Shown one piece after another: positions 767 through 13,421 of a DNA stretch of 20,320 nucleotides. Location: positions 1-20,320 of the IMG/VR virus record IMGVR_UViG_2565956608_000010, one strand, 5' to 3'. Positions within the stretch are counted from its first letter, which is position 1, and each line of letters begins with the position of its first letter. The translations under genes and the position numbers were made by a program. Under the pieces are notes generated by a model. It saw nothing but the letters and a program-made list of their open reading frames with translations, ran no database searches and was not told the DNA's origin. The DNA comes from a virus (Duplodnaviria > Heunggongvirae > Uroviricota > Caudoviricetes).

Positions 767-1279
767 TTAAACGGTATGATATTTCATTCTGGCTGCCTCA
801 AAAGCCGCAGCGGCAAGTTCGGCAGTGTCATGGTATCCAAGGTTAATACACTTTCCAGACGCATTAATTCTTGCTCTCCATTTCCCGTACTTAGCATCCC
901 AAGACACGCCACGGTATCCAGATTTATTATTCTTCTGAATTTTCCTGTTTTGCATATTTTCGGAATGAGTGACAAGACGAAGATTTGATATCCGGTTATC
1001 TGTTCTTACCCTGTTGATGTGATCAATAAAACCATCGGGCATGGTGCCATAAACAATCAACCATGCCAGTCTGTGAGCAGGGCATGCTTTACCATTAATC
1101 ATAATCATTAAATACCCATCAGAATTTATTGATGAGCATTTCTTGAAAGCAAAACGAGAGTTCCATGTCAAAGTGGTCCTCTCTCTCCCCTGCCTCCATC
1201 TCCAGTGAAAGTCGCCTGATGATGGATTGTAATCAACAACAGAAAGCACCATTTCTGGCGTTAATTTTATTTCTTTCAT
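767..1279 (-). CDS. HNH homing-type endonuclease with C-terminal AP2-like DNA-binding domain (170 aa)
   Basis: HNH motif AHRLAWLIVYG...FIDHINRVRTDNRISNLRLVTHSENMQN, then GYRGVSWDAKYGKWRARI...LGYHDTAELAAAAFEAA typical of the AP2 domain in phage HNH endonucleases. Confidence 0.8.
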   Translation of the reverse strand: MKEIKLTPEMVLSVVDYNPSSGDFHWRWRQGRERTTLTWNSRFAFKKCSSINSDGYLMIMINGKACPAHRLAWLIVYGTMPDGFIDHINRVRTDNRISNLRLVTHSENMQNRKIQKNNKSGYRGVSWDAKYGKWRARINASGKCINLGYHDTAELAAAAFEAARMKYHTV

Positions 1280-4214: not shown

Positions 4215-4430
4215 TCACTTTAAATCCAGACTCCGGATTATTCTGTTGCGCTGAAACTCATTGTTGAGTCTGAACAACCGCCGAAGAACACGGTCACGCG
4301 GATAGCGTCGTGCGGCAGGTGAATGCTCATACAACTCATCAAGCGGTAAACTGGACGATGAACGATACCGATACCAACGCGCCAACTCTTCACGAAAATT
4401 AGCCCTGACAAGCTCAGCTATCGTACTCAT
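4215..4430 (-). CDS. hypothetical protein (71 aa, basic/Arg-rich)
   Basis: ORF with strong RBS AGGAGG 8 nt upstream of the ATG; no family recognised. Confidence 0.55.
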   Translation of the reverse strand: MSTIAELVRANFREELARWYRYRSSSSLPLDELYEHSPAARRYPRDRVLRRLFRLNNEFQRNRIIRSLDLK

Positions 4431-4555
4431 TTCTTAAAACCTCCTAAAACGCATTCTGACGAACTTTTACATCTCGCCACCCAATTACATGCCTGAGCAA
4501 TGATTAGGTCGCCACAGGCTTATTTATGTGGCTTAAAATCGATTTTGCTTACATA

Positions 4556-4586
4556 CAAACAAAAGACCTGCGATTACCAGCAGGCC
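4556..4586 (-). terminator. putative Rho-independent terminator downstream of HNH endonuclease 2 (possibly bidirectional)
   Basis: Hairpin GGCCUGC / GCAGGUC (7 bp with one G-U pair, 8-nt loop) followed on the minus strand by UCUUUUGUUUG; on the plus strand the same hairpin is followed by a T-run (4587..4599). Confidence 0.45.
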
Positions 4587-4587
4587 T

Positions 4588-5199
4588 TTATCTTTTTTTA
4601 ACACGCTTTCGAGTCCTTTTAGATTTTTCCTTAAGATATTCCGCAAGTTTATCCTCATCATTATTAAATTGAGATAAAAGCTCATGCTCGCAATTAAGTG
4701 CTTTACTCGCATAAGTTCCATATAGTTTCTTTCTTGCTAGTGCTGCTATGAATGCTGCATCTTCTTTGCTATCGAAATACCCTAACGATATTGTCTTATT
4801 TTTATAACCAACATAAGACTTCCACCTGCCAGTTGTCTTATCCCAAGACACTCCAATCGCACCGGATGTGTTTAACCTATTCCCTACAATGTTTCTTGCA
4901 TTCTGCTCCTCTGTTGCCAGTCTTAGATTTGAAATCCTATTGTCAAGTCTGTTCCCATTTACATGATCAATAAACTTAGGAGGCCATTTTTTGTATACAT
5001 AGAACCAAGCAAGTCTATGCGCATAATACAAAACATTATTTATGCTAATGCATATATAACCACCACTAACACCTCCAGCAATACTACCTTTTACTCTTAC
5101 TACTGAATTTGTTTTTAGCCATTTAAATATTCCTGTTTCTGAGTCATATGATAATGTTGACAGAAGCTCATCGTGATCAATTAGTTTTTTTATTCGCAT
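4588..5199 (-). CDS. HNH homing-type endonuclease with AP2-like domain, second copy (203 aa), AT-rich
   Basis: AHRLAWFYVYKKWPPKFIDHVNGNRLDNRISNLRLATEEQN (HNH) and GVSWDKTTGRWKSYV...LGYFDSKEDAAFIAALA (AP2-like); same architecture as 767..1279; codon usage looks AT-rich compared with the neighbours. Confidence 0.8.
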   Translation of the reverse strand: MRIKKLIDHDELLSTLSYDSETGIFKWLKTNSVVRVKGSIAGGVSGGYICISINNVLYYAHRLAWFYVYKKWPPKFIDHVNGNRLDNRISNLRLATEEQNARNIVGNRLNTSGAIGVSWDKTTGRWKSYVGYKNKTISLGYFDSKEDAAFIAALARKKLYGTYASKALNCEHELLSQFNNDEDKLAEYLKEKSKRTRKRVKKR

Positions 5200-5277
5200 A
5201 AAGAATATACTTAATAATATATACAGTAAGAACCATTAGTAACGATAACCCTGCTATCAGCTCAGTGATGTAGATAG

Positions 5278-5547
5278 TCATTGCTTCATCTCCCTTTCCA
5301 TTTCATCAATGTCAACGTCATCAGGAAGATGGGAGCAATACGCCGCTATACCATGATGATTTATCTCATACCCTTTGAACGTTACCATCTGGCGCGTAAT
5401 CTCAACTTCGTTCAGGAATCCGTCATCGCATAACTGCCTGGCTATTTTCGATTTGGTCTGGATTATTGGTAGTGCCTGTTCTTTCAAAGCGTATGATATT
5501 TGTGCATCCCATGCCTTTTCGAGAATGGCTAATTGTTTTTTATTCAT
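5278..5547 (-). CDS. hypothetical protein (89 aa)
   Basis: ORF whose ATG directly abuts the primase-helicase stop (TAAATG); no family recognised. Confidence 0.5.
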   Translation of the reverse strand: MNKKQLAILEKAWDAQISYALKEQALPIIQTKSKIARQLCDDGFLNEVEITRQMVTFKGYEINHHGIAAYCSHLPDDVDIDEMEREMKQ

Positions 5548-7535: not shown

Positions 7536-8333
7536 TCACCTGTCGAAAAACACGTAGCCAGTTTTCGATACGGTGATTGCGGATGATGGTTTGGATTGTG
7601 GTTGAATGGTTTCTGGCTTTTCGTCGTTCCAGCGCTGACCTTTCAGGTAGCTCGATGGTAACAACCTGTCGAATCCAAACTGCTTACCATTCCTGCATGC
7701 GATGTCTTCTGCCAGCATCGTGGCAAACTCGCTTGCCGTACCCCTGGTAGTTTTACGCCATTCCCTGAACTGTGTTCTGAATGCCGACGCTGCGTTTTTC
7801 TTCCCGGCCTTCCGCATGCCTGCACACCAGAATATTTCCTCGAATGCCTTGTCGGTTTCTTCGTGACGGTCAGGAGTTTTTTCACACTCCGTTCGGACAT
7901 GTTCGAACATAATGTTTTTAGGTTCATTGACTGGTTCAAAAGAGTGATAGGTTCTGGGGGCAGCTCCTGCCCCACCCCCTAGGGCAGCTCCTGCCCCACC
8001 CCGGGCAGCTCCTGCCCCACCCCGGGCAGCTCCTGCCCCACCTGATTCTGGTGGGATTTGTTGTGCATTATCCAGCGTCAGATAAAAAACGTTTGACTGG
8101 TTAAGCTCTCCTTTTCTTCTGCATTCCCTTTTCAAAAGACCCATCTCTTCCAGTGCCCTAATGTGACTTTTTACTGTCGATCTGCTCACCTCACACTGGT
8201 CAGCGACATGTTGATATGAAGGCCAGCATTCGCCATTATCATTGGCGTTATCGGCAAGTTTAATCAGAACCAGTTTTCTCAGTGGGTTGCCAACCTTTAT
8301 ATTCATGGCCTTAGCCATAAGATTCATGCTCAT
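7536..8333 (-). CDS. putative replication initiator / origin-binding protein (HTH N-terminal domain, Gly/Ala repeat linker), 265 aa
   Basis: N-terminal winged-helix-like segment (LVLIKLADNANDNGECWPSYQHVADQCEVSRSTVKSHIRALEEMGLLK); contains the iteron array in its coding sequence (translated as GGAGAARGGAGAARGGAGAALGGGAGAA); sits upstream of the primase-helicase in the lambda O position. Confidence 0.65.
   Translation of the reverse strand: MSMNLMAKAMNIKVGNPLRKLVLIKLADNANDNGECWPSYQHVADQCEVSRSTVKSHIRALEEMGLLKRECRRKGELNQSNVFYLTLDNAQQIPPESGGAGAARGGAGAARGGAGAALGGGAGAAPRTYHSFEPVNEPKNIMFEHVRTECEKTPDRHEETDKAFEEIFWCAGMRKAGKKNAASAFRTQFREWRKTTRGTASEFATMLAEDIACRNGKQFGFDRLLPSSYLKGQRWNDEKPETIQPQSKPSSAITVSKTGYVFFDR
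7956..8042. repeat. four tandem direct repeats of about 21 bp (GGGCAGCTCCTGCCCCACCCC), each with internal dyad GGCAG-CTC-CTGCC; putative ori iterons
   Basis: Unit starts at about 7958, 7982, 8003 and 8024 (periods 24, 21, 21), read directly; a more AT-rich stretch follows at about 7895..7950; arrangement parallels lambda ori inside gene O. Confidence 0.7.
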
Positions 8334-8495: not shown

Positions 8496-8795
8496 TTAAA
8501 ATTCCATCTGGATTTGTTCAGAACGCTCGGTCTTGCACACCGGGCGTTTTTTATTGGTGAGTCCATCAAGTGCATACTTAAAAGCCCTGCTAATCGGACT
8601 GATGTCTGATGCCATTCCGAAAGCACACAAGACCGAAGCAATAAATCTCCAGTCCGTTCTGCTTATCTTCGATTCATGACAGCCAATCATCTTTGCCAGA
8701 CCGCGCTGGGTAAGCGTTGACAGGTTGATGAGTAAATCTGTTTCTGCGCGATCAACGTCGCGCTGGGATAGTTTGCTGTAACTTGTTTGTGTCAT
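8496..8795 (-). CDS. cII: CII-like transcriptional activator (99 aa)
   Basis: C-terminus TNKKRPVCKTERSEQIQMEF matches the lambda CII C-terminus (…TNKKRPAATERSEQIQMEF); position immediately downstream of cro. Confidence 0.85.
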   Translation of the reverse strand: MTQTSYSKLSQRDVDRAETDLLINLSTLTQRGLAKMIGCHESKISRTDWRFIASVLCAFGMASDISPISRAFKYALDGLTNKKRPVCKTERSEQIQMEF

Positions 8796-8933: not shown

Positions 8934-9143
<210 letters not shown>

Positions 9144-9231: not shown

Positions 9232-9948
<717 letters not shown>

Positions 9949-10116
9949 TTGTGTGAAACAGGCTGCAGAAATGCAGTCTTTTTCGGTTATCGATGTCACC
10001 ACTGGTAAATCGTTTACCATAAGTCTTGATCTATTTGGTTTACCGTGTCACTCTTGGTGCACCACTTTACCAATGGTAAAACATTAACCAGCAATGACAT
10101 CGTTAACCAGGAGTTT

Positions 10117-11139
10117 ATGATGAAGAAATATGCTATATGGAACAACAAGGGAGGAACAGGGAAAACAAGCCTGTCATTTCAAGCTATTTGCAGATATGCA
10201 GAAATTCACCCGCTTGAGCGCGTGTTGGTTATTGATGTGTGCCCACAGGCAAACTTGTCAGAGCTTTTTCTTGGGGGGTTAATAGGTAATGGAAGCATAA
10301 ACTTATTGACTAGGCATGATATAAATAATAGATGTACTTTGGGTGGCTACTTCCAAATGCGCCTCCCGACGCCTTATCAAAAACCCATTGTTGATGCCCA
10401 CGATTATTTGACACACCCAAAAAAATTCAACGAACATATTCCAGCCAATATATCGTTGGTATGCGGTGACCCGCTTCTTGAGCTTCAAGCAAACGCCATC
10501 AACACTCTTGCTAATCAGCAGATTCCAGGAACAAATGCATGGGTAAGCATCATTGATTGGATTAATGATCTTATTAAAGATCTAAATGATGAGTACGATG
10601 TTTTATTTATTGACTGTAATCCTAGTTTTTCAATTTATACTCAAATAGCATTAGCTGCTGTAGAAAAGCTCATCTTGCCAGTTATGGCTGATGATTCCTC
10701 TCGTCGCGCCATTCAAAATGCTTTCTCTTTGATTTATGGATTAAAGTTGCCATCTGATATTTATGCATCCTACGCATTTGCAAACAAACTTACCGCGGTG
10801 AGCAGACCACTACCCAAAGTTCATATGATCGCAAAAAACCGTCTTACACAGTATATGGGGCCTGCATCAGCCTATGCCGCAGTTCTAAAATCAATCGATA
10901 ATGATATTCAGCAACTATTACTAAGTAACCCTGAAATTTTCGACTTCGAAAATATTGAAGAGGGAGTGGTAAATATTAAAGATTTTCAGACAACTGGTGT
11001 TGTTGCCTTTGCTAAAGGATGTCCATTTTCGATCCTACCAACAGGTAGTGTACGAGTTATGAACAGAAGGGTAAAAGTTAATGCCCCATATAAACAATCT
11101 TGCTTAGAAGCCATTGATAGGATGGTGGTTAAACTATAA
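10117..11139 (+). CDS. ParA/MinD-like P-loop ATPase (340 aa from MMKKYAIWNNKGGTGKTS) in the rexAB position; function unknown, candidate exclusion/defence gene
   Basis: Deviant Walker A KGGTGKTS near the N-terminus, ParA-type motif VLVIDVCPQANLS and later VLFIDCNPS; RBS AGGAG 4 nt upstream of ATGATG at 10117; AT-rich by eye; flanked by the cI terminus and a terminator before OL. Confidence 0.7.
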   Translation: MMKKYAIWNNKGGTGKTSLSFQAICRYAEIHPLERVLVIDVCPQANLSELFLGGLIGNGSINLLTRHDINNRCTLGGYFQMRLPTPYQKPIVDAHDYLTHPKKFNEHIPANISLVCGDPLLELQANAINTLANQQIPGTNAWVSIIDWINDLIKDLNDEYDVLFIDCNPSFSIYTQIALAAVEKLILPVMADDSSRRAIQNAFSLIYGLKLPSDIYASYAFANKLTAVSRPLPKVHMIAKNRLTQYMGPASAYAAVLKSIDNDIQQLLLSNPEIFDFENIEEGVVNIKDFQTTGVVAFAKGCPFSILPTGSVRVMNRRVKVNAPYKQSCLEAIDRMVVKL

Positions 11140-11147
11140 ATCAACCA

Positions 11148-11174
11148 ACCCGGCCCCAGTGCCGGGTTTTCTTT
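11148..11174 (+). terminator. Rho-independent terminator after the ParA-like gene
   Basis: ACCCGGC-CCCAGT-GCCGGGT stem-loop followed by TTTCTTTG. Confidence 0.6.
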
Positions 11175-11331
11175 GCCTCACGATCCCCTTCACCCAATAA
11201 CACATAACCAATTGTATTTATTTGAAAATTAATAGATACAACTCACTAAACATCGCAATTCAGATCTCTCGATCACCTCCCAAGCCACACACCCCTGCAA
11301 AAAAATAAATCTATATAAAAAACATACAGAT

Positions 11332-11394
11332 AACCATCTGCGGTGATAAATTATCTCTGGCGGTGTTGACATAAATACCACTGGCGGTGATACT
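11332..11394 (+). promoter_or_regulatory. Left operator OL3-OL2-OL1 with promoter pL
   Basis: OL3 AACCATCTGCGGTGATA 11332..11348; OL2 TATCTCTGGCGGTGTTG 11352..11368; OL1 TACCACTGGCGGTGATA 11376..11392; pL -35 TTGACA 11366..11371, 17-bp spacer, -10 GATACT 11389..11394; matches lambda OL/pL as recalled. Confidence 0.9.
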
Positions 11395-11642: not shown

Positions 11643-12026
11643 ATGACACGCAGAACTCAGTTCAAAGGCAATTCACGTTCTCGTCGTCGTGAGCGTTTAA
11701 AGGCAAAGGCATTAGCTAACGGCGTGCTGGCCCGCGAAGAAGCAATAAGTTCAGAAGTATTACACCGCCCTACTCTAAGCAGAGCGCAGATTCAGGCTAA
11801 AGGTACTCACGAAACGCCTGAGCGCATAGAAGACGCTAAGCCAATTAAGTTCATGGCACAGGACGTGATCTGGCAACAGAAAGAATACAGACGCAATCTG
11901 GAGCGAGCGGCCATTGTGTACGCGAATGAGTTTGGACATAAGCAACCAGAAACTGGTGTATGTCTTCCAAACGTAGCCATTTACGCGGCAGGCTACCGGA
12001 AATCCAAACAACTGACGGCGAGGTGA
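11643..12026 (+). CDS. N: N-like transcription antiterminator (127 aa, arginine-rich N-terminal motif)
   Basis: First gene of the pL operon after a ~240-nt structured leader; Arg-rich motif TRRTQFKGNSRSRRRERLKAKALA; RBS AGGAGG before the ATG; not lambda N by sequence but the same position and features. Confidence 0.75.
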   Translation: MTRRTQFKGNSRSRRRERLKAKALANGVLAREEAISSEVLHRPTLSRAQIQAKGTHETPERIEDAKPIKFMAQDVIWQQKEYRRNLERAAIVYANEFGHKQPETGVCLPNVAIYAAGYRKSKQLTAR

Positions 12027-12047: not shown

Positions 12048-12587
12048 CTAAATTAGCTCATCAGCTTTACCAGCAAAGCGCATATAACACTCATGGAACC
12101 AGACGTCAGGTATAACAAATTTCTCTCTACCTGACGCGCTGTAAGTCACACCTGAGCGATGGAGAAGGCCTTTTCTCATAAGAGATAAAGCGACCGGATC
12201 GCCGTGCTTAAGTACGATTTTGTTATTTGCCATAACAGCAAATGCTAAAACCTCTTTTTCCTGAATACTCAGAGAATTGAACAGGCGCTCAGTCTCCACA
12301 ATTACTTTAGCCTCATCTCTCTTACTGAGATATTTTTTATATCTGTCTGAAGATGCCAGAAATATAAACTCCATCACCCTGTTCAGAACATAACTGATAC
12401 ACAAAAGCATTGCGTAATACATCCAGTGATCTGGAAGTATTTCTGGGTTCCTTATATCTACCCACTCTTTAATTGATGCGGGGGTGATTATTATCAAGGC
12501 AATTAAAATAATAAGCATATGAATTAACTGTTGTAGCGTAAGACCACGCAGGAAGAAACGTAATAGTTCCTGCCACCAGTTACTCAT
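12048..12587 (-). CDS. SieB-like superinfection exclusion membrane protein (179 aa)
   Basis: Convergent, tail-to-tail with N as I recall lambda sieB being; hydrophobic helix LIHMLIILIALIIITPASI; assignment by position and topology, not by recognised sequence identity. Confidence 0.45.
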   Translation of the reverse strand: MSNWWQELLRFFLRGLTLQQLIHMLIILIALIIITPASIKEWVDIRNPEILPDHWMYYAMLLCISYVLNRVMEFIFLASSDRYKKYLSKRDEAKVIVETERLFNSLSIQEKEVLAFAVMANNKIVLKHGDPVALSLMRKGLLHRSGVTYSASGREKFVIPDVWFHECYMRFAGKADELI

Positions 12588-12797
12588 CGGTGAATCTCCA
12601 TCATTCTCTCTGTAGGGGGTGAATAGAGTTTATCCGATTTCTCGCTGTAGGGGTACACGAGAACCACCGAGCCTGATGTGGTTAAAAGACAGGCACAATC
12701 TTTACTACCGCAAGCCACGCAGTGAAATGGGTGTGACTTGTGTTGGTCGCCAGAAAATGAAATTAGGCAGCAAACCACTTATTTGAGAGGAATTAAT

Positions 12798-13421
12798 ATG
12801 TCATCAATCCGCTTAACTACGAGAATGAAAGAGGAAATCGCTCGTAACGCTTTAATTAAGTCCGGGGTGTTCACTGAACTTGAAGAAGTAACAAAGTTAA
12901 AGAACCAGCTTGCACTTGACGCCAGAGTTATTGCGTTTGGCGGGAAAAAGAAAACCGAAGAAGTGGACCAGCTGGCATCAAAGTTAATGGCTGCAAGTGA
13001 GGAACTTCAAAAGCTGGGATGTTCATTTTACTCATGCGATGTCAGTTCATGTTCGATTTATCTGACTGTATCTGGAAGAAGGGTTGGCTGGCATTCATAC
13101 GGAAAAGACGGCAACGGTGAAGATATATTGCTCCCTACCCCCGACAAAGATAAATGCATGTTTGACGCAGAACACAAAATAACAAAAAGGTTTGATGAAA
13201 TCTGCGCATTGCAACAAAAACTTGAAGCCAGGAAAAAGGATATAGAATCAAACGTATGGGCTGCTTTGAACTCAGTCACAACAGTTAAGCGACTTATTGA
13301 AGTTTGGCCTGAAAGCAAAGAGTTGCTACCAAAAGAAGCAGATAAAGCAAGTGCAGCACTTCCTGCTTTACGGGTAGAAGATTTGAATAAGATGATTGGA
13401 CTTCCTTCCGAGGCCGCATAA
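12798..13421 (+). CDS. hypothetical protein (207 aa from MSSIRLTTRMKEEIA), coiled-coil-rich; occupies the ral/ea10 region of the pL operon
   Basis: Internal Met of the track ORF preceded by RBS GAGAGGA; followed by a terminator hairpin; no family recognised. Confidence 0.6.
   Translation: MSSIRLTTRMKEEIARNALIKSGVFTELEEVTKLKNQLALDARVIAFGGKKKTEEVDQLASKLMAASEELQKLGCSFYSCDVSSCSIYLTVSGRRVGWHSYGKDGNGEDILLPTPDKDKCMFDAEHKITKRFDEICALQQKLEARKKDIESNVWAALNSVTTVKRLIEVWPESKELLPKEADKASAALPALRVEDLNKMIGLPSEAA

What the first reader, a model, noticed from the sequence alone, without database searches (positions are those of the whole stretch)
9949..11180. ParA/MinD-like ATPase replaces rexA-rexB in the cI-to-OL slot: candidate undescribed exclusion/defence gene
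OR, cI, OL and pL here are essentially lambda's, yet the interval that carries rexA-rexB in lambda holds a single 340-aa ORF with a ParA-type deviant Walker A (KGGTGKTS) and ParA-like motifs (VLVIDVCPQ, VLFIDCNPS). No ParB partner or obvious parS is nearby, so a partition role is unlikely, and the gene looks AT-rich against lambda-like flanks, suggesting separate acquisition. The cI-to-pL interval is a known slot for lysogen-expressed exclusion genes. Upstream there are a hairpin plus T-run after cI (9963..9985) and two palindromes sharing one motif (TGGTAAA-N3-TTTACCA at 10003..10019; TTTACCA-N1-TGGTAAA at 10066..10080), which may give it independent regulation. A terminator follows at 11148..11174.
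Basis: partly seen in the sequence, partly recalled or inferred. Interest (0 to 1): 0.85.

Follow-up and report, generated by a model that had tools for sequence, protein, structure and literature searches.

The report
Orphan ParA ATPase in rex slot
A lambda-immunity prophage carries, exactly where lambda has its rexAB exclusion genes, a lone and very highly conserved ParA-family ATPase gene with its own repeat-studded control region. It is not a partition gene, its role is untested, and it is a reasonable but unproven candidate for a new phage-competition factor.

Summary
Window 10120..11139 (+) encodes a 339-aa ParA/Soj-fold ATPase. It lies between a cI gene 98% identical to lambda's and lambda's Timm terminator, OL and pL, in place of rexA-rexB.

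It has no ParB, the phage has a lambda-type integrase, and relatives on plasmids sit beside ordinary par systems. It is therefore not a partition gene.

It belongs to a large stand-alone family that stays 64-70% identical from enterobacteria to Streptomyces and shows dN/dS of 0.05. The family rides on prophages, plasmids and recombinase elements. In enterobacterial lambdoid phages it recurs directly downstream of different CI repressors.

The gene travels with its own cis module: an upstream terminator plus clustered inverted and direct repeats. In other clades these are GTCCA-N3-TGGAC palindromes inside consensus sigma-70 promoters, or 9-bp arrays of up to 666 bp. Repeat type co-varies with a basic beta-hairpin at residues 308-320. 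This suggests the ATPase reads its own operators, which is inference only.

No PADLOC model or held paper describes the family. The nearest precedent is RemA, the ParA-like ATPase of the three-gene RemAIN defence system of Gifsy-1. A defence role is plausible from position and precedent only.

The parts
9235..9948 (+). cI repressor of lambda immunity. It forms the left border of the slot.
   Evidence: Pfam HTH_3 plus Peptidase_S24. 98.1% nucleotide identity to lambda cro-cI; homology ends at the cI stop codon.
9960..9984 (+). Intrinsic-terminator-like hairpin (8-bp stem, GAAA loop, T5) at the 5' edge of the cassette.
   Evidence: Scan. The same element, in stronger form (GGTCGCAGARATGCGGCC plus T6-7), precedes the gene in most clade-1 loci, including Rahnella L011, which has no cI.
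9985..10108 (.). Cluster of repeated sites, taken to be a putative operator region. It holds A-box copies at 9985-10000 and, inverted, at 10093-10108. It holds palindromes TGGTAAA-N3-TTTACCA (10003-10019) and TTTACCA-N1-TGGTAAA (10066-10080). It also holds further TAACCA half-sites at 10085 and 10104.
   Evidence: There are 7 half-sites in 172 bp against 2.8 per kb in the window. The architecture is conserved in 14 diverged loci whose synonymous sites are saturated. RNAalifold gives no support for an RNA structure.
10109..10113 (+). Shine-Dalgarno sequence AGGAG.
   Evidence: Read directly from the sequence. It lies 6 nt upstream of ATG 10120.
10120..11139 (+). Stand-alone ParA/Soj-fold ATPase gene, 339 aa. 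Walker A KGGTGKT is at residues 10-16, Walker A' is Asp39, and Walker B is Asp165. A basic beta-hairpin lies at about residues 308-320.
11147..11174 (+). The lambda-type Timm terminator. It forms the right border of the inserted cassette.
   Evidence: Scan. Homology to lambda, HK97 and HK542 starts here. It is annotated as Timm in EF120458.
11332..11394 (+). OL3-OL2-OL1 operators and the pL promoter.
   Evidence: Sequence, promoter scan, and annotation of the homologous HK542 region.

Best explanation
The feature is an autonomous one-gene cassette (a 'moron') inserted between cI and Timm in place of rexAB. Its parts are an upstream terminator, a cluster of repeated DNA sites, and a 339-aa ParA/Soj-class ATPase gene. 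The claims below carry different confidence.

Shown (confidence about 0.9). The protein is a catalytically intact ParA-fold ATPase. It has no partner gene. It is not the partition ATPase of this integrating phage. It belongs to a strongly constrained family that moves among prophages, plasmids and recombinase elements.

Inferred (about 0.55). As an ATP-dependent dimer, the protein itself binds the palindromic and iterated sites upstream of its gene, probably through the basic beta-hairpin at residues 308-320. It thereby represses its own promoter. In this lambda-immunity lineage both the cassette terminator and the second repeat unit are degenerate. Part of its expression may therefore come from pRM read-through in the lysogen.

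Inferred (about 0.4). Its biological role is in conflict between mobile elements. It would be a lysogen-expressed exclusion or defence factor acting through ATP-dependent DNA binding on incoming or replicating foreign DNA. The cis sites would set its dose and might titrate it when the prophage itself replicates.
For: Identity of the protein:
- Pfam and PHROG hits.
- AlphaFold2 model with pLDDT 86.7 and pTM 0.90.
- Foldseek best matches are Soj 2BEK (E 1e-12), ParA 8RAY, McdA 6NOP and DIP2308 3PG5.
- K10, K15, D39 and D165 are invariant in 37 homologues.

Stand-alone status:
- No neighbour is conserved across clades other than CI-type repressors in lambdoid loci.
- No small ORF outside the gene is conserved.
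- The exact protein always sits in a cro-cI-X-N module while the replication, N and recombination modules around it vary.

Not a partition gene:
- The window has an integrase and no ParB.
- Plasmid pXfc32 carries the family in addition to a canonical small parA with partner and StbB.
- NCBIfam partition equivalogs score far below their cut-offs.

Constraint on the family:
- 64-70% identity to actinobacterial and xanthomonad proteins.
- dN/dS of 0.046, with synonymous sites saturated at 90% amino-acid identity.

Cis module:
- describe the repeats.
- GTCCA-N3-TGGAC palindromes lie at -41 to -127 in 15 of 29 other loci. That is 58 times the background density, and paired sites are spaced 21 bp apart.
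- The palindromes sit inside or over promoters scoring 12/12, 10/12 and 10/12 against the sigma-70 consensus in Stenotrophomonas, Streptomyces and an enterobacterial phage.
- 9-bp arrays of 4 to about 74 copies occur upstream of the gene. In IMG/VR phage contigs such arrays are found only next to this gene; the one other hit is a coding repeat in a giant-virus contig.

Hairpin:
- 6 of the 15 residues that perfectly separate TTACC-type from GTCCA-type loci fall within residues 308-316.
- All GTCCA-type loci keep Arg317. Every locus with another residue at that position lacks GTCCA sites.

Role:
- The same slot holds rexAB in lambda, a NYN-domain gene in ev099, and unrelated gene pairs in HK97 and HK542.
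- The cI-N interval is a recognised hotspot that also holds the BstA abortive-infection gene (PMC8585504).
- Gifsy-1 has a defence system in its immunity region with a ParA-like ATPase, RemA of RemAIN (PMC9879122 and PMC13043305).
- Distant relatives (39% identity) are the only cargo gene of 5-kb ColE1-type mobilisable plasmids.
- Some loci have restriction-modification or Abi-like neighbours.
Against: - No experiment or expression data exist for this gene.
- There is no effector domain such as a nuclease or a membrane segment. No PADLOC model matches. Longer relatives show no informative domain fusions.
- Extreme purifying selection and cross-phylum conservation are unusual for defence genes.
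- Neighbourhood association with defence genes is weak and was not tested against a background.
- DNA binding by the protein is inferred only from co-variation, which is confounded by phylogeny because the TTACC-type loci form one clade.
- No convincing sigma-70 promoter was found in the window's own upstream region. The only tool hit, 10094-10121, overlaps the start codon.
- A host factor binding the repeats cannot be excluded.
Confidence: 0.4

Rival explanations
1. It is a one-protein DNA-tethering or organising module. The ATPase binds its own cis array, which would act like a centromere. In the ATP form it also binds the nucleoid non-specifically. This would anchor or organise the element's DNA, for example non-integrated or excised circles and plasmids, without a ParB.
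For: - ParA fold.
- Iteron-like arrays directly upstream of the gene, reaching 666 bp or 74 copies in L036. In IMG/VR phage contigs they are found only next to this gene.
- The family occurs on conjugative plasmids next to MobF relaxase genes and in a two-recombinase element.
Against: - This phage integrates.
- pXfc32 already has a complete par system.
- The distant relatives on plasmids sit on small ColE1-type plasmids. From general knowledge, these are multicopy and need no active partition.
- Most lineages have only 1-3 palindromes, placed over the promoter as an operator would be.
Confidence: 0.2
2. It is a regulator rather than a weapon. One option is a DNA-binding ATPase that modulates the lysis-lysogeny switch, as RexA does. 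The other is an ATPase that acts on a universal host process such as replication initiation or nucleoid organisation, as Soj acts on DnaA.
For: - It lies immediately downstream of cI in many lambdoid phages.
- Cross-phylum conservation fits a universal partner.
- The 9-bp unit GATGTCCAC resembles the actinobacterial DnaA box TTGTCCACA. This rests on my own knowledge and was not tested.
Against: - The family also occurs on plasmids and in non-lambdoid elements that have no CI/Cro switch.
- The GTCCA-N3-TGGAC palindromes match a DnaA box poorly (my own reading of the sequences).
- No composite sites occur elsewhere in the window.
Confidence: 0.15
3. It is a sensor or regulatory ATPase of a RemAIN-like system that has lost its partners or works with effectors encoded elsewhere. 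Alone it would be inactive.
For: RemAIN (STM14_3218-3220) combines a ParA-like ATPase with an immunity protein and a HEPN nuclease, in the immunity region of a lambdoid prophage.
Against: - The slot holds a single ORF.
- The family is solitary in every clade.
- It is under strong purifying selection, so it is functional on its own.
- RemA is 279 aa against 339 aa here.
Confidence: 0.07
4. It is a bona fide partition ParA whose ParB and parS lie elsewhere in the element.
For: The PHROG family name is 'ParA-like partition protein'. There are weak hits to the RepA and ParA partition models.
Against: - All partition equivalogs fall far below their cut-offs: 40.5 against 348, 35 against 180, and 12 against 725.
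- The 20-kb window has no ParB but does have an integrase.
- The flanks vary between prophages that carry the identical protein.
Confidence: 0.02
5. The 124-nt inverted repeat upstream (9985-10108) acts as an RNA leader structure controlling translation, not as DNA sites.
For: The window RNA folds at -56.7 kcal/mol, with a z-score of -4.6 against shuffles. The 3' arm ends next to the Shine-Dalgarno sequence.
Against: - The consensus fold of 14 relatives is only -8.2 kcal/mol, with a covariation term of +0.33.
- The units occur as two direct copies plus one inverted copy.
- In other clades the palindromes lie in the promoter spacer or over the -10 element, upstream of any transcript.
- There is no Rfam hit in this region.
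Confidence: 0.08

Closest known systems
RemA of the RemAIN system (STM14_3218-3220, Gifsy-1 of S. Typhimurium 14028; Sargen & Helaine 2024, cited in PMC13043305; genetics in PMC9879122)
   Same: It is a ParA-like ATPase without a ParB. It is encoded in the immunity region of a lambdoid prophage, and its expression is unchanged by mitomycin C. It is part of an experimentally shown anti-phage and prophage-competition system.
   Different: RemA is 279 aa. It works as a unit with RemI (immunity protein) and RemN (HEPN anticodon nuclease). Here there is one 339-aa gene and no partner in any clade. Orthology could not be tested because no RemA sequence was available.
Lambda RexA-RexB
   Same: It occupies the same position, between cI and Timm, and is potentially transcribed from pRM in the lysogen. 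RexA is a DNA-binding protein.
   Different: There is no sequence or fold relationship. Rex has two genes, including a membrane protein, whereas here there is a single cytoplasmic-type ATPase with its own terminator and repeat cluster upstream.
BstA with its aba DNA element (prophage BTP1; PMC8585504)
   Same: It is a single prophage gene downstream of the repressor. Its activity is tied to DNA, and a cognate cis DNA element within the locus gives self-immunity. This offers a model for what the cis repeats here might do.
   Different: BstA is not an ATPase of this fold. A self-immunity function for the repeats here is pure conjecture.
Type Ia partition ATPases (P1 ParA, F SopA) acting as autorepressors (my own knowledge)
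   Same: They are ParA ATPases that bind specific operator DNA at their own promoter. They share an insertion between Walker A' and Walker B, and P1 ParA 3EZ2 is among the structural hits.
   Different: They use an N-terminal helix-turn-helix domain, which is absent here because Walker A starts at residue 10. They also need ParB and parS. NCBIfam SopA scores 12 against a cut-off of 725.
Chromosomal Soj/ParA and McdA
   Same: They are the best structural matches and have the same catalytic motifs.
   Different: They are about 250 aa. They bind DNA non-specifically and depend on Spo0J/ParB or McdB. The family here has an insertion of roughly 60 aa and a C-terminal beta-hairpin.
DIP2308 of Corynebacterium diphtheriae (PDB 3PG5, structural genomics, uncharacterised)
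   Same: It is the only solved structure that aligns across the N-terminal half including the insertion (residues 2-198).
   Different: Identity is low (16-21% in the Foldseek alignments), its function is unknown, and the C-terminal part does not align by sequence.

Membership tests
ParA/MinD (SIMIBI, deviant Walker A) ATPase superfamily | Deviant Walker A motif KGGxGK[ST] with the signature lysine | tested here: met
   KGGTGKTS lies at residues 10-17. K10 and K15 are invariant in 37 homologues.
ParA/MinD (SIMIBI, deviant Walker A) ATPase superfamily | ParA/Soj three-dimensional fold | tested here: met
   AlphaFold2 model with pLDDT 86.7 and pTM 0.90. Foldseek matches to Soj, ParA and McdA at probability 1.0, with target-normalised TM scores of 0.74-0.80.
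ParA/MinD (SIMIBI, deviant Walker A) ATPase superfamily | Pfam domain score above the gathering threshold | tested here: met
   AAA_31 scores 61.7 against 27. CbiA scores 28.3 against 25.4.
Type I partition system (parA-parB-parS) | An adjacent gene for a centromere-binding protein (ParB, ParG or similar) | tested here: not met
   The slot holds a single ORF. No neighbour or small ORF is conserved in 50 loci. No ParB-like product was found among the Pfam-scanned ORFs of the window.
Type I partition system (parA-parB-parS) | Carried by a replicon that needs active partition | tested here: not met
   The prophage has a lambda-type integrase. On pXfc32 the gene is additional to a canonical par pair.
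Type I partition system (parA-parB-parS) | Repeated centromere-like sites next to the operon | tested here: inconclusive
   Repeat clusters and 9-bp arrays do exist upstream. In most lineages, however, they overlap the promoter as operators would.
Type I partition system (parA-parB-parS) | Score above the NCBIfam equivalog cut-offs (ParA_partition, RepA, SopA) | tested here: not met
   35 against 180, 40.5 against 348, and 12.2 against 725.
RemAIN defence system | Three-gene unit: ATPase RemA, immunity protein RemI and HEPN nuclease RemN | tested here: not met
   There is one ORF between cI and Timm, with no HEPN gene or small partner. The system's composition is taken from PMC13043305.
RemAIN defence system | Location in the immunity region of a lambdoid prophage | tested here: met
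   The order is cro-cI-gene-OL/pL-N.
RemAIN defence system | Orthology of the ATPase to RemA | not testable with these tools
   No RemA sequence could be obtained and the primary paper is not held. The lengths differ: 339 aa here against 279 aa (840 bp).
Rex exclusion system | Homology to RexA or RexB | tested here: not met
   Homology to lambda stops at the cI stop codon and resumes at Timm. The protein matches only ParA-type families.
MinD cell-division ATPases | Score above the MinD model cut-off | tested here: not met
   TIGR01969 scores 19 against 201.75. MinD structures rank below Soj and ParA.
Catalogued anti-phage defence proteins (PADLOC-DB 2.0.0) | A match to any of the 5027 models | tested here: not met
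   0 families at E <= 1.

The most novel reading that the evidence does not exclude
The gene is a self-contained, ParB-independent ParA machine. It would read its own specific DNA sites through a C-terminal beta-hairpin, and together with those sites it would form a new single-gene class of defence or competition module carried by prophages and plasmids. The adjacent site array would act as dose control and as a DNA decoy that spares the carrier element when it replicates, analogous to BstA-aba.
Probability: 0.2. Interest if true: 0.85.

Novelty: new variant of a known kind. Interest (0 to 1): 0.6.

Why it matters
ParA ATPases are understood as nucleoid-bound positioning motors that depend on a partner protein for specificity. 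This family is more conserved than Soj itself. It is spread across phyla on every kind of mobile element, always solitary, and always accompanied by co-evolving DNA repeats.

If the protein reads those sites itself, that would be a new way for a ParA fold to gain sequence specificity.

If it proves to be an exclusion factor, it would add a widespread single-gene family to the defence repertoire. It would also give the rex slot of lambda-immunity phages another testable occupant, in an experimentally easy host and phage background.

The co-variation between the hairpin and the operator makes a direct specificity-swap experiment possible.

Tried and rejected
- Rfam scan of the whole window found nothing in 9949-11180.
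- The RNA-leader idea for the long inverted repeat started well, with z -4.6. It was rejected on the alignment fold.
- The search for a hidden partner covered neighbour clustering at >=60 aa and small ORFs at >=25 aa. Only out-of-frame shadows of the conserved gene were found.
- Domain fusions in ten longer relatives showed only ParA domains.
- BFVD viral structures gave nothing informative.
- The PADLOC search returned no hit.
- Dispersed copies of the composite sites in the 20-kb window were sought and none found. The sites therefore do not look like a genome-wide target set.
- The 9-bp array was searched across IMG/VR. It occurred only next to this gene, apart from an unrelated coding repeat in a giant-virus contig.
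- The 5.87-kb Salmonella 'plasmids' carrying the gene have no replication gene. They look like assembly circles of a prophage immunity region, so they were not used as evidence for a plasmid lifestyle.
- Reading the GTCCAC arrays as DnaA boxes was considered. The palindromic sites fit a DnaA box poorly, so this is kept only as a low-probability note.
- No credible sigma-70 promoter was found for the window clade. At best there is a conserved TTGAYC followed 16-17 nt later by a weak xAxCAT.
- The defence-island test on 150 neighbour ORFs returned a few restriction-modification and Abi-like hits. It had no background control, so it was not used as strong evidence.
- The RemAIN primary paper and Degnan et al. 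2007 could not be read.
Full report
WHAT IS THERE

The window is a lambdoid early region read in the opposite orientation to the lambda map. Gene by gene:
- Q, NinG and NinB lie on the minus strand.
- A primase-helicase and an O-like replication protein follow.
- cII is at 8496-8795 (-) and cro at 8934-9134 (-).
- OR is followed by cI at 9235-9948 (+).
- The finding comes next, then OL/pL and N at 11643-12026 (+).
- A SieB homologue, an Nmad5 protein, Rad52-type recombinase, SSB and Ea22 follow.
- A lambda-type integrase starts at 19247.

The cro-OR-cI block is 98.1% identical to lambda and 99.6% identical to HK97. Homology to lambda-immunity phages stops at the cI stop codon. It resumes at about 11147 with the Timm terminator, OL3-OL1 and pL.

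The interval in between holds a single gene. The best start is ATG 10120, which gives 339 aa. AGGAG lies 6 nt upstream, and homologues are 339-340 aa long. The compositional dip is real but modest: 39.1% GC against 46.2% for the window, in the lowest 4% of same-size windows.

WHAT THE PROTEIN IS

It is a ParA/Soj-class ATPase.
- Pfam AAA_31 and CbiA score above their gathering thresholds. PHROG_164 matches at E 7e-39.
- The AlphaFold2 model is confident (pLDDT 86.7, pTM 0.90).
- The best structural matches are Thermus Soj, a ParA-ATP complex, McdA, Helicobacter Soj and the uncharacterised DIP2308.
- The signature lysine, the P-loop lysine, the Walker A' aspartate and the Walker B aspartate are invariant in an alignment of 37 homologues.

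It differs from the roughly 250-aa Soj proteins in two ways. It has an insertion between Walker A' and Walker B, shared with DIP2308 and with type Ia ParAs. It also has a confidently modelled basic beta-hairpin at residues 309-320, just before the last helix.

It is not a member of any curated partition, MinD, BcsQ or ArsA equivalog, because every NCBIfam score is far below its cut-off. It matches no PADLOC model.

THE FAMILY

The word-indexed search returned 5,338 relatives. The best 120 are all at least 64% identical over the full length. They include proteins from Rahnella, Serratia, Hafnia, Yersinia and Morganella, and also from Streptomyces, Micromonospora, Mycolicibacterium, Nocardia, Xanthomonas and Stenotrophomonas. 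The exhaustive search of 50%-identity representatives found 102 clusters at E <= 1e-30.

Selection is strongly purifying. dN/dS is 0.046 against a 98%-identical copy. Against relatives that are 90% identical in protein, synonymous sites are saturated (pS 0.78-0.92) while pN is 0.07.

The exact protein of the window is on record as 'ParA family protein [Escherichia coli]'. Near-identical copies are common in Salmonella Infantis. None of 5,426 complete RefSeq E. coli genomes holds it at megablast sensitivity, although 843 of them hold the flanks.

CONTEXT

The gene is always alone. Clustering all ORFs within 3 kb in 51 loci found only one recurrent class of neighbour: CI-type repressors immediately upstream on the same strand, together with other lambdoid early genes. 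No partner is shared across clades. A search for small ORFs found only out-of-frame shadows of the gene itself.

The identical protein sits in the cro-cI-X-N module of prophages whose replication genes, N alleles and recombination modules all differ. Close relatives sit behind other repressor and Cro types (L013).

Elsewhere the family is found in several settings:
- at the edge of prophages;
- with two tyrosine recombinases inside a split ligase gene in Streptomyces;
- next to MobF relaxase genes on a Xanthomonas and a Cryobacterium plasmid.

The Xanthomonas plasmid also has a normal small parA with partner, plus StbB. Relatives at 39% identity are the only cargo gene of 5-kb ColE1-type mobilisable plasmids.

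Together with the integrase in the window, this rules out a conventional partition role. In other lambda-immunity phages the same slot holds rexAB, a NYN-domain gene, or unrelated gene pairs.

THE CIS MODULE

This is the most unexpected result. The upstream DNA travels with the gene.

In the window clade the conserved order is as follows:
1. a GC-rich terminator hairpin;
2. two direct copies of a unit of about 36 nt, GGTTAACGATGTCACC-A-n-TGGTAAA-nn-GTTTACCA, separated by a conserved CTTGAYC;
3. an optional extra palindrome;
4. an inverted copy of the first box, abutting the ribosome-binding site.

The Rahnella locus keeps this module although no cI lies upstream. These non-coding positions are conserved between lineages whose synonymous sites are saturated.

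In the window itself the elements are at 9960-9984 (hairpin, weaker than in relatives), 9985-10000, 10003-10019, 10066-10080 and 10093-10108. The second unit is degenerate. Half-sites are about 14-fold enriched.

Other clades carry a different site, the 13-bp palindrome GTCCA-N3-TGGAC.
- It is present at -41 to -127 in 15 of 29 loci, at 58 times the background density. When two are present they are spaced exactly 21 bp apart.
- In Stenotrophomonas it fills the spacer of a perfect TTGACA-16-TATAAT promoter.
- In Streptomyces it fills the spacer of TTGCCA-17-TAGAAT.
- In an enterobacterial phage it overlaps the -10 element.
- In the Hafnia-type clade it is followed by tandem 9-bp GRYGTCCAC units, from 4 copies up to a 666-bp array.
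- In IMG/VR phage contigs such arrays occur only next to this gene; the one other match is a coding repeat in a giant-virus contig.
- Further lineages have yet other palindromes, and so do the ColE1-type relatives.

An RNA-structure reading is not supported.

WHO BINDS THE SITES?

No partner is encoded, and the sites are conserved from Actinobacteria to Proteobacteria. The simplest reading is that the ATPase binds them itself, as a two-fold symmetric ATP dimer.

Two observations are consistent with this. Six of the 15 alignment positions that perfectly separate TTACC-type from GTCCA-type loci lie in residues 308-316 of the beta-hairpin. Across independent lineages, every GTCCA-type locus keeps Arg317, and every locus with another residue at that position lacks GTCCA sites.

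This is correlation only, and it is partly confounded by phylogeny. Nothing here shows binding. If true, it is a different route to sequence specificity from the N-terminal helix-turn-helix of type Ia ParAs (my own knowledge).

FUNCTION

Nothing computed here reveals the role, and I commit only with stated uncertainty.

In favour of a role in competition or defence between mobile elements:
- The cI-N interval is a known hotspot of accessory genes. It holds the rexAB and BstA abortive-infection systems (PMC8585504).
[quoted passage not shown] Its first gene, STM14_3218 or RemA, is a ParB-less ParA-like ATPase expressed in the lysogen (PMC9879122; PMC13043305).
- The family is carried as cargo by many kinds of mobile element.
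- A perfect-consensus promoter held down by an operator suggests a product whose dose must be tightly limited.

Against such a role:
- There is no effector domain and no partner.
- Conservation is extreme.
- Association with known defence genes is weak and uncontrolled.

I put the defence or exclusion role at about 0.4. A tethering or DNA-organising role built on the cis arrays gets about 0.2. A regulatory role on the switch or on a universal host process gets about 0.15. A true partition role gets about 0.02.

NOVELTY

The fold and superfamily are known, and databases already label the protein 'ParA family protein'. Four things appear to be undescribed in PADLOC 2.0.0 and in the held literature (ten searches):
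- the existence of this solitary, cross-phylum subfamily;
- its co-travelling and co-varying repeat module;
- the hairpin as a candidate reading head;
- its recurrent residence in the repressor-downstream slot.

I therefore rate it a new variant of a known kind. It is of moderate-to-high interest, chiefly because clear experiments are available in a lambda and E. coli or Salmonella setting.

Noticed in passing
window 18218-18302 (+): Near-threshold match to the Rfam family sRNA-Xcc1 (RF02221): 49.6 bits against a gathering score of 53, E 2.6e-6, full-length model. It lies about 1 kb upstream of the integrase gene.
   Followed up: no
window 767-1279 (-) and 4588-5199 (-): Two paralogous ORFs with HNH_3 plus AP2 domains, resembling homing endonucleases (weak PADLOC HEase hits). 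The second lies in the most AT-rich island of the window, 35-38% GC at about 4400-5400.
   Followed up: partly
window 12048-12587 (-) and 12738-13421 (+): A SieB superinfection-exclusion homologue lies directly after N, followed by an Nmad5 (nucleotide-modification-associated) domain protein. The prophage therefore carries at least one recognised exclusion gene next to the slot.
   Followed up: partly
window 7536-8333 (-): The O-like HTH_36 replication protein contains a fourfold GGAGAA(R/L) repeat in its middle (translation). This probably reflects origin iterons inside the gene, as in lambda O (my own knowledge).
   Followed up: no
L036 5313-5978 (IMGVR_UViG_2869851316_000002): A 666-bp tandem array, with an 18-bp period and 38 copies (about 74 nine-base units GRYGTCCAC), lies directly upstream of a 74%-identical homologue. 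Sister loci have 4-10 units.
   Followed up: partly
L005 7273-14381 (Streptomyces sp. DK15, JAMYEJ010000001): The homologue and two tyrosine recombinases (800 and 415 aa) lie between the N-terminal and the C-terminal (HHH/BRCT) parts of an NAD-dependent DNA ligase gene. This looks like an element inserted in ligA.
   Followed up: no
L072 (CP148862.1 and 16 similar Salmonella Infantis records): These records are deposited as 5.87-kb circular 'plasmids'. They consist only of a lambdoid immunity region (cII, cro, cI, the ParA-like gene, N and a few others) and have no replication gene. They are probably assembly circles rather than plasmids.
   Followed up: partly
L060 5797-7856: A type II restriction-modification pair, a C5 methyltransferase and a restriction enzyme (PADLOC E 1e-126 and 3e-128), lies 1.4 kb downstream of a 54%-identical homologue. 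That homologue's upstream palindromes are of a third type, ACGTAA...TTACGT.
   Followed up: partly
L073 1269-2327 (pSUH-5 and about 100 similar 5-kb plasmids of E. coli, Salmonella and Enterobacter): A 39%-identical ParA-like gene is the only non-mobilisation, non-replication cargo of small ColE1-type MOBP plasmids. GTTAGC/GCTAAC inverted repeats lie upstream of it.
   Followed up: partly
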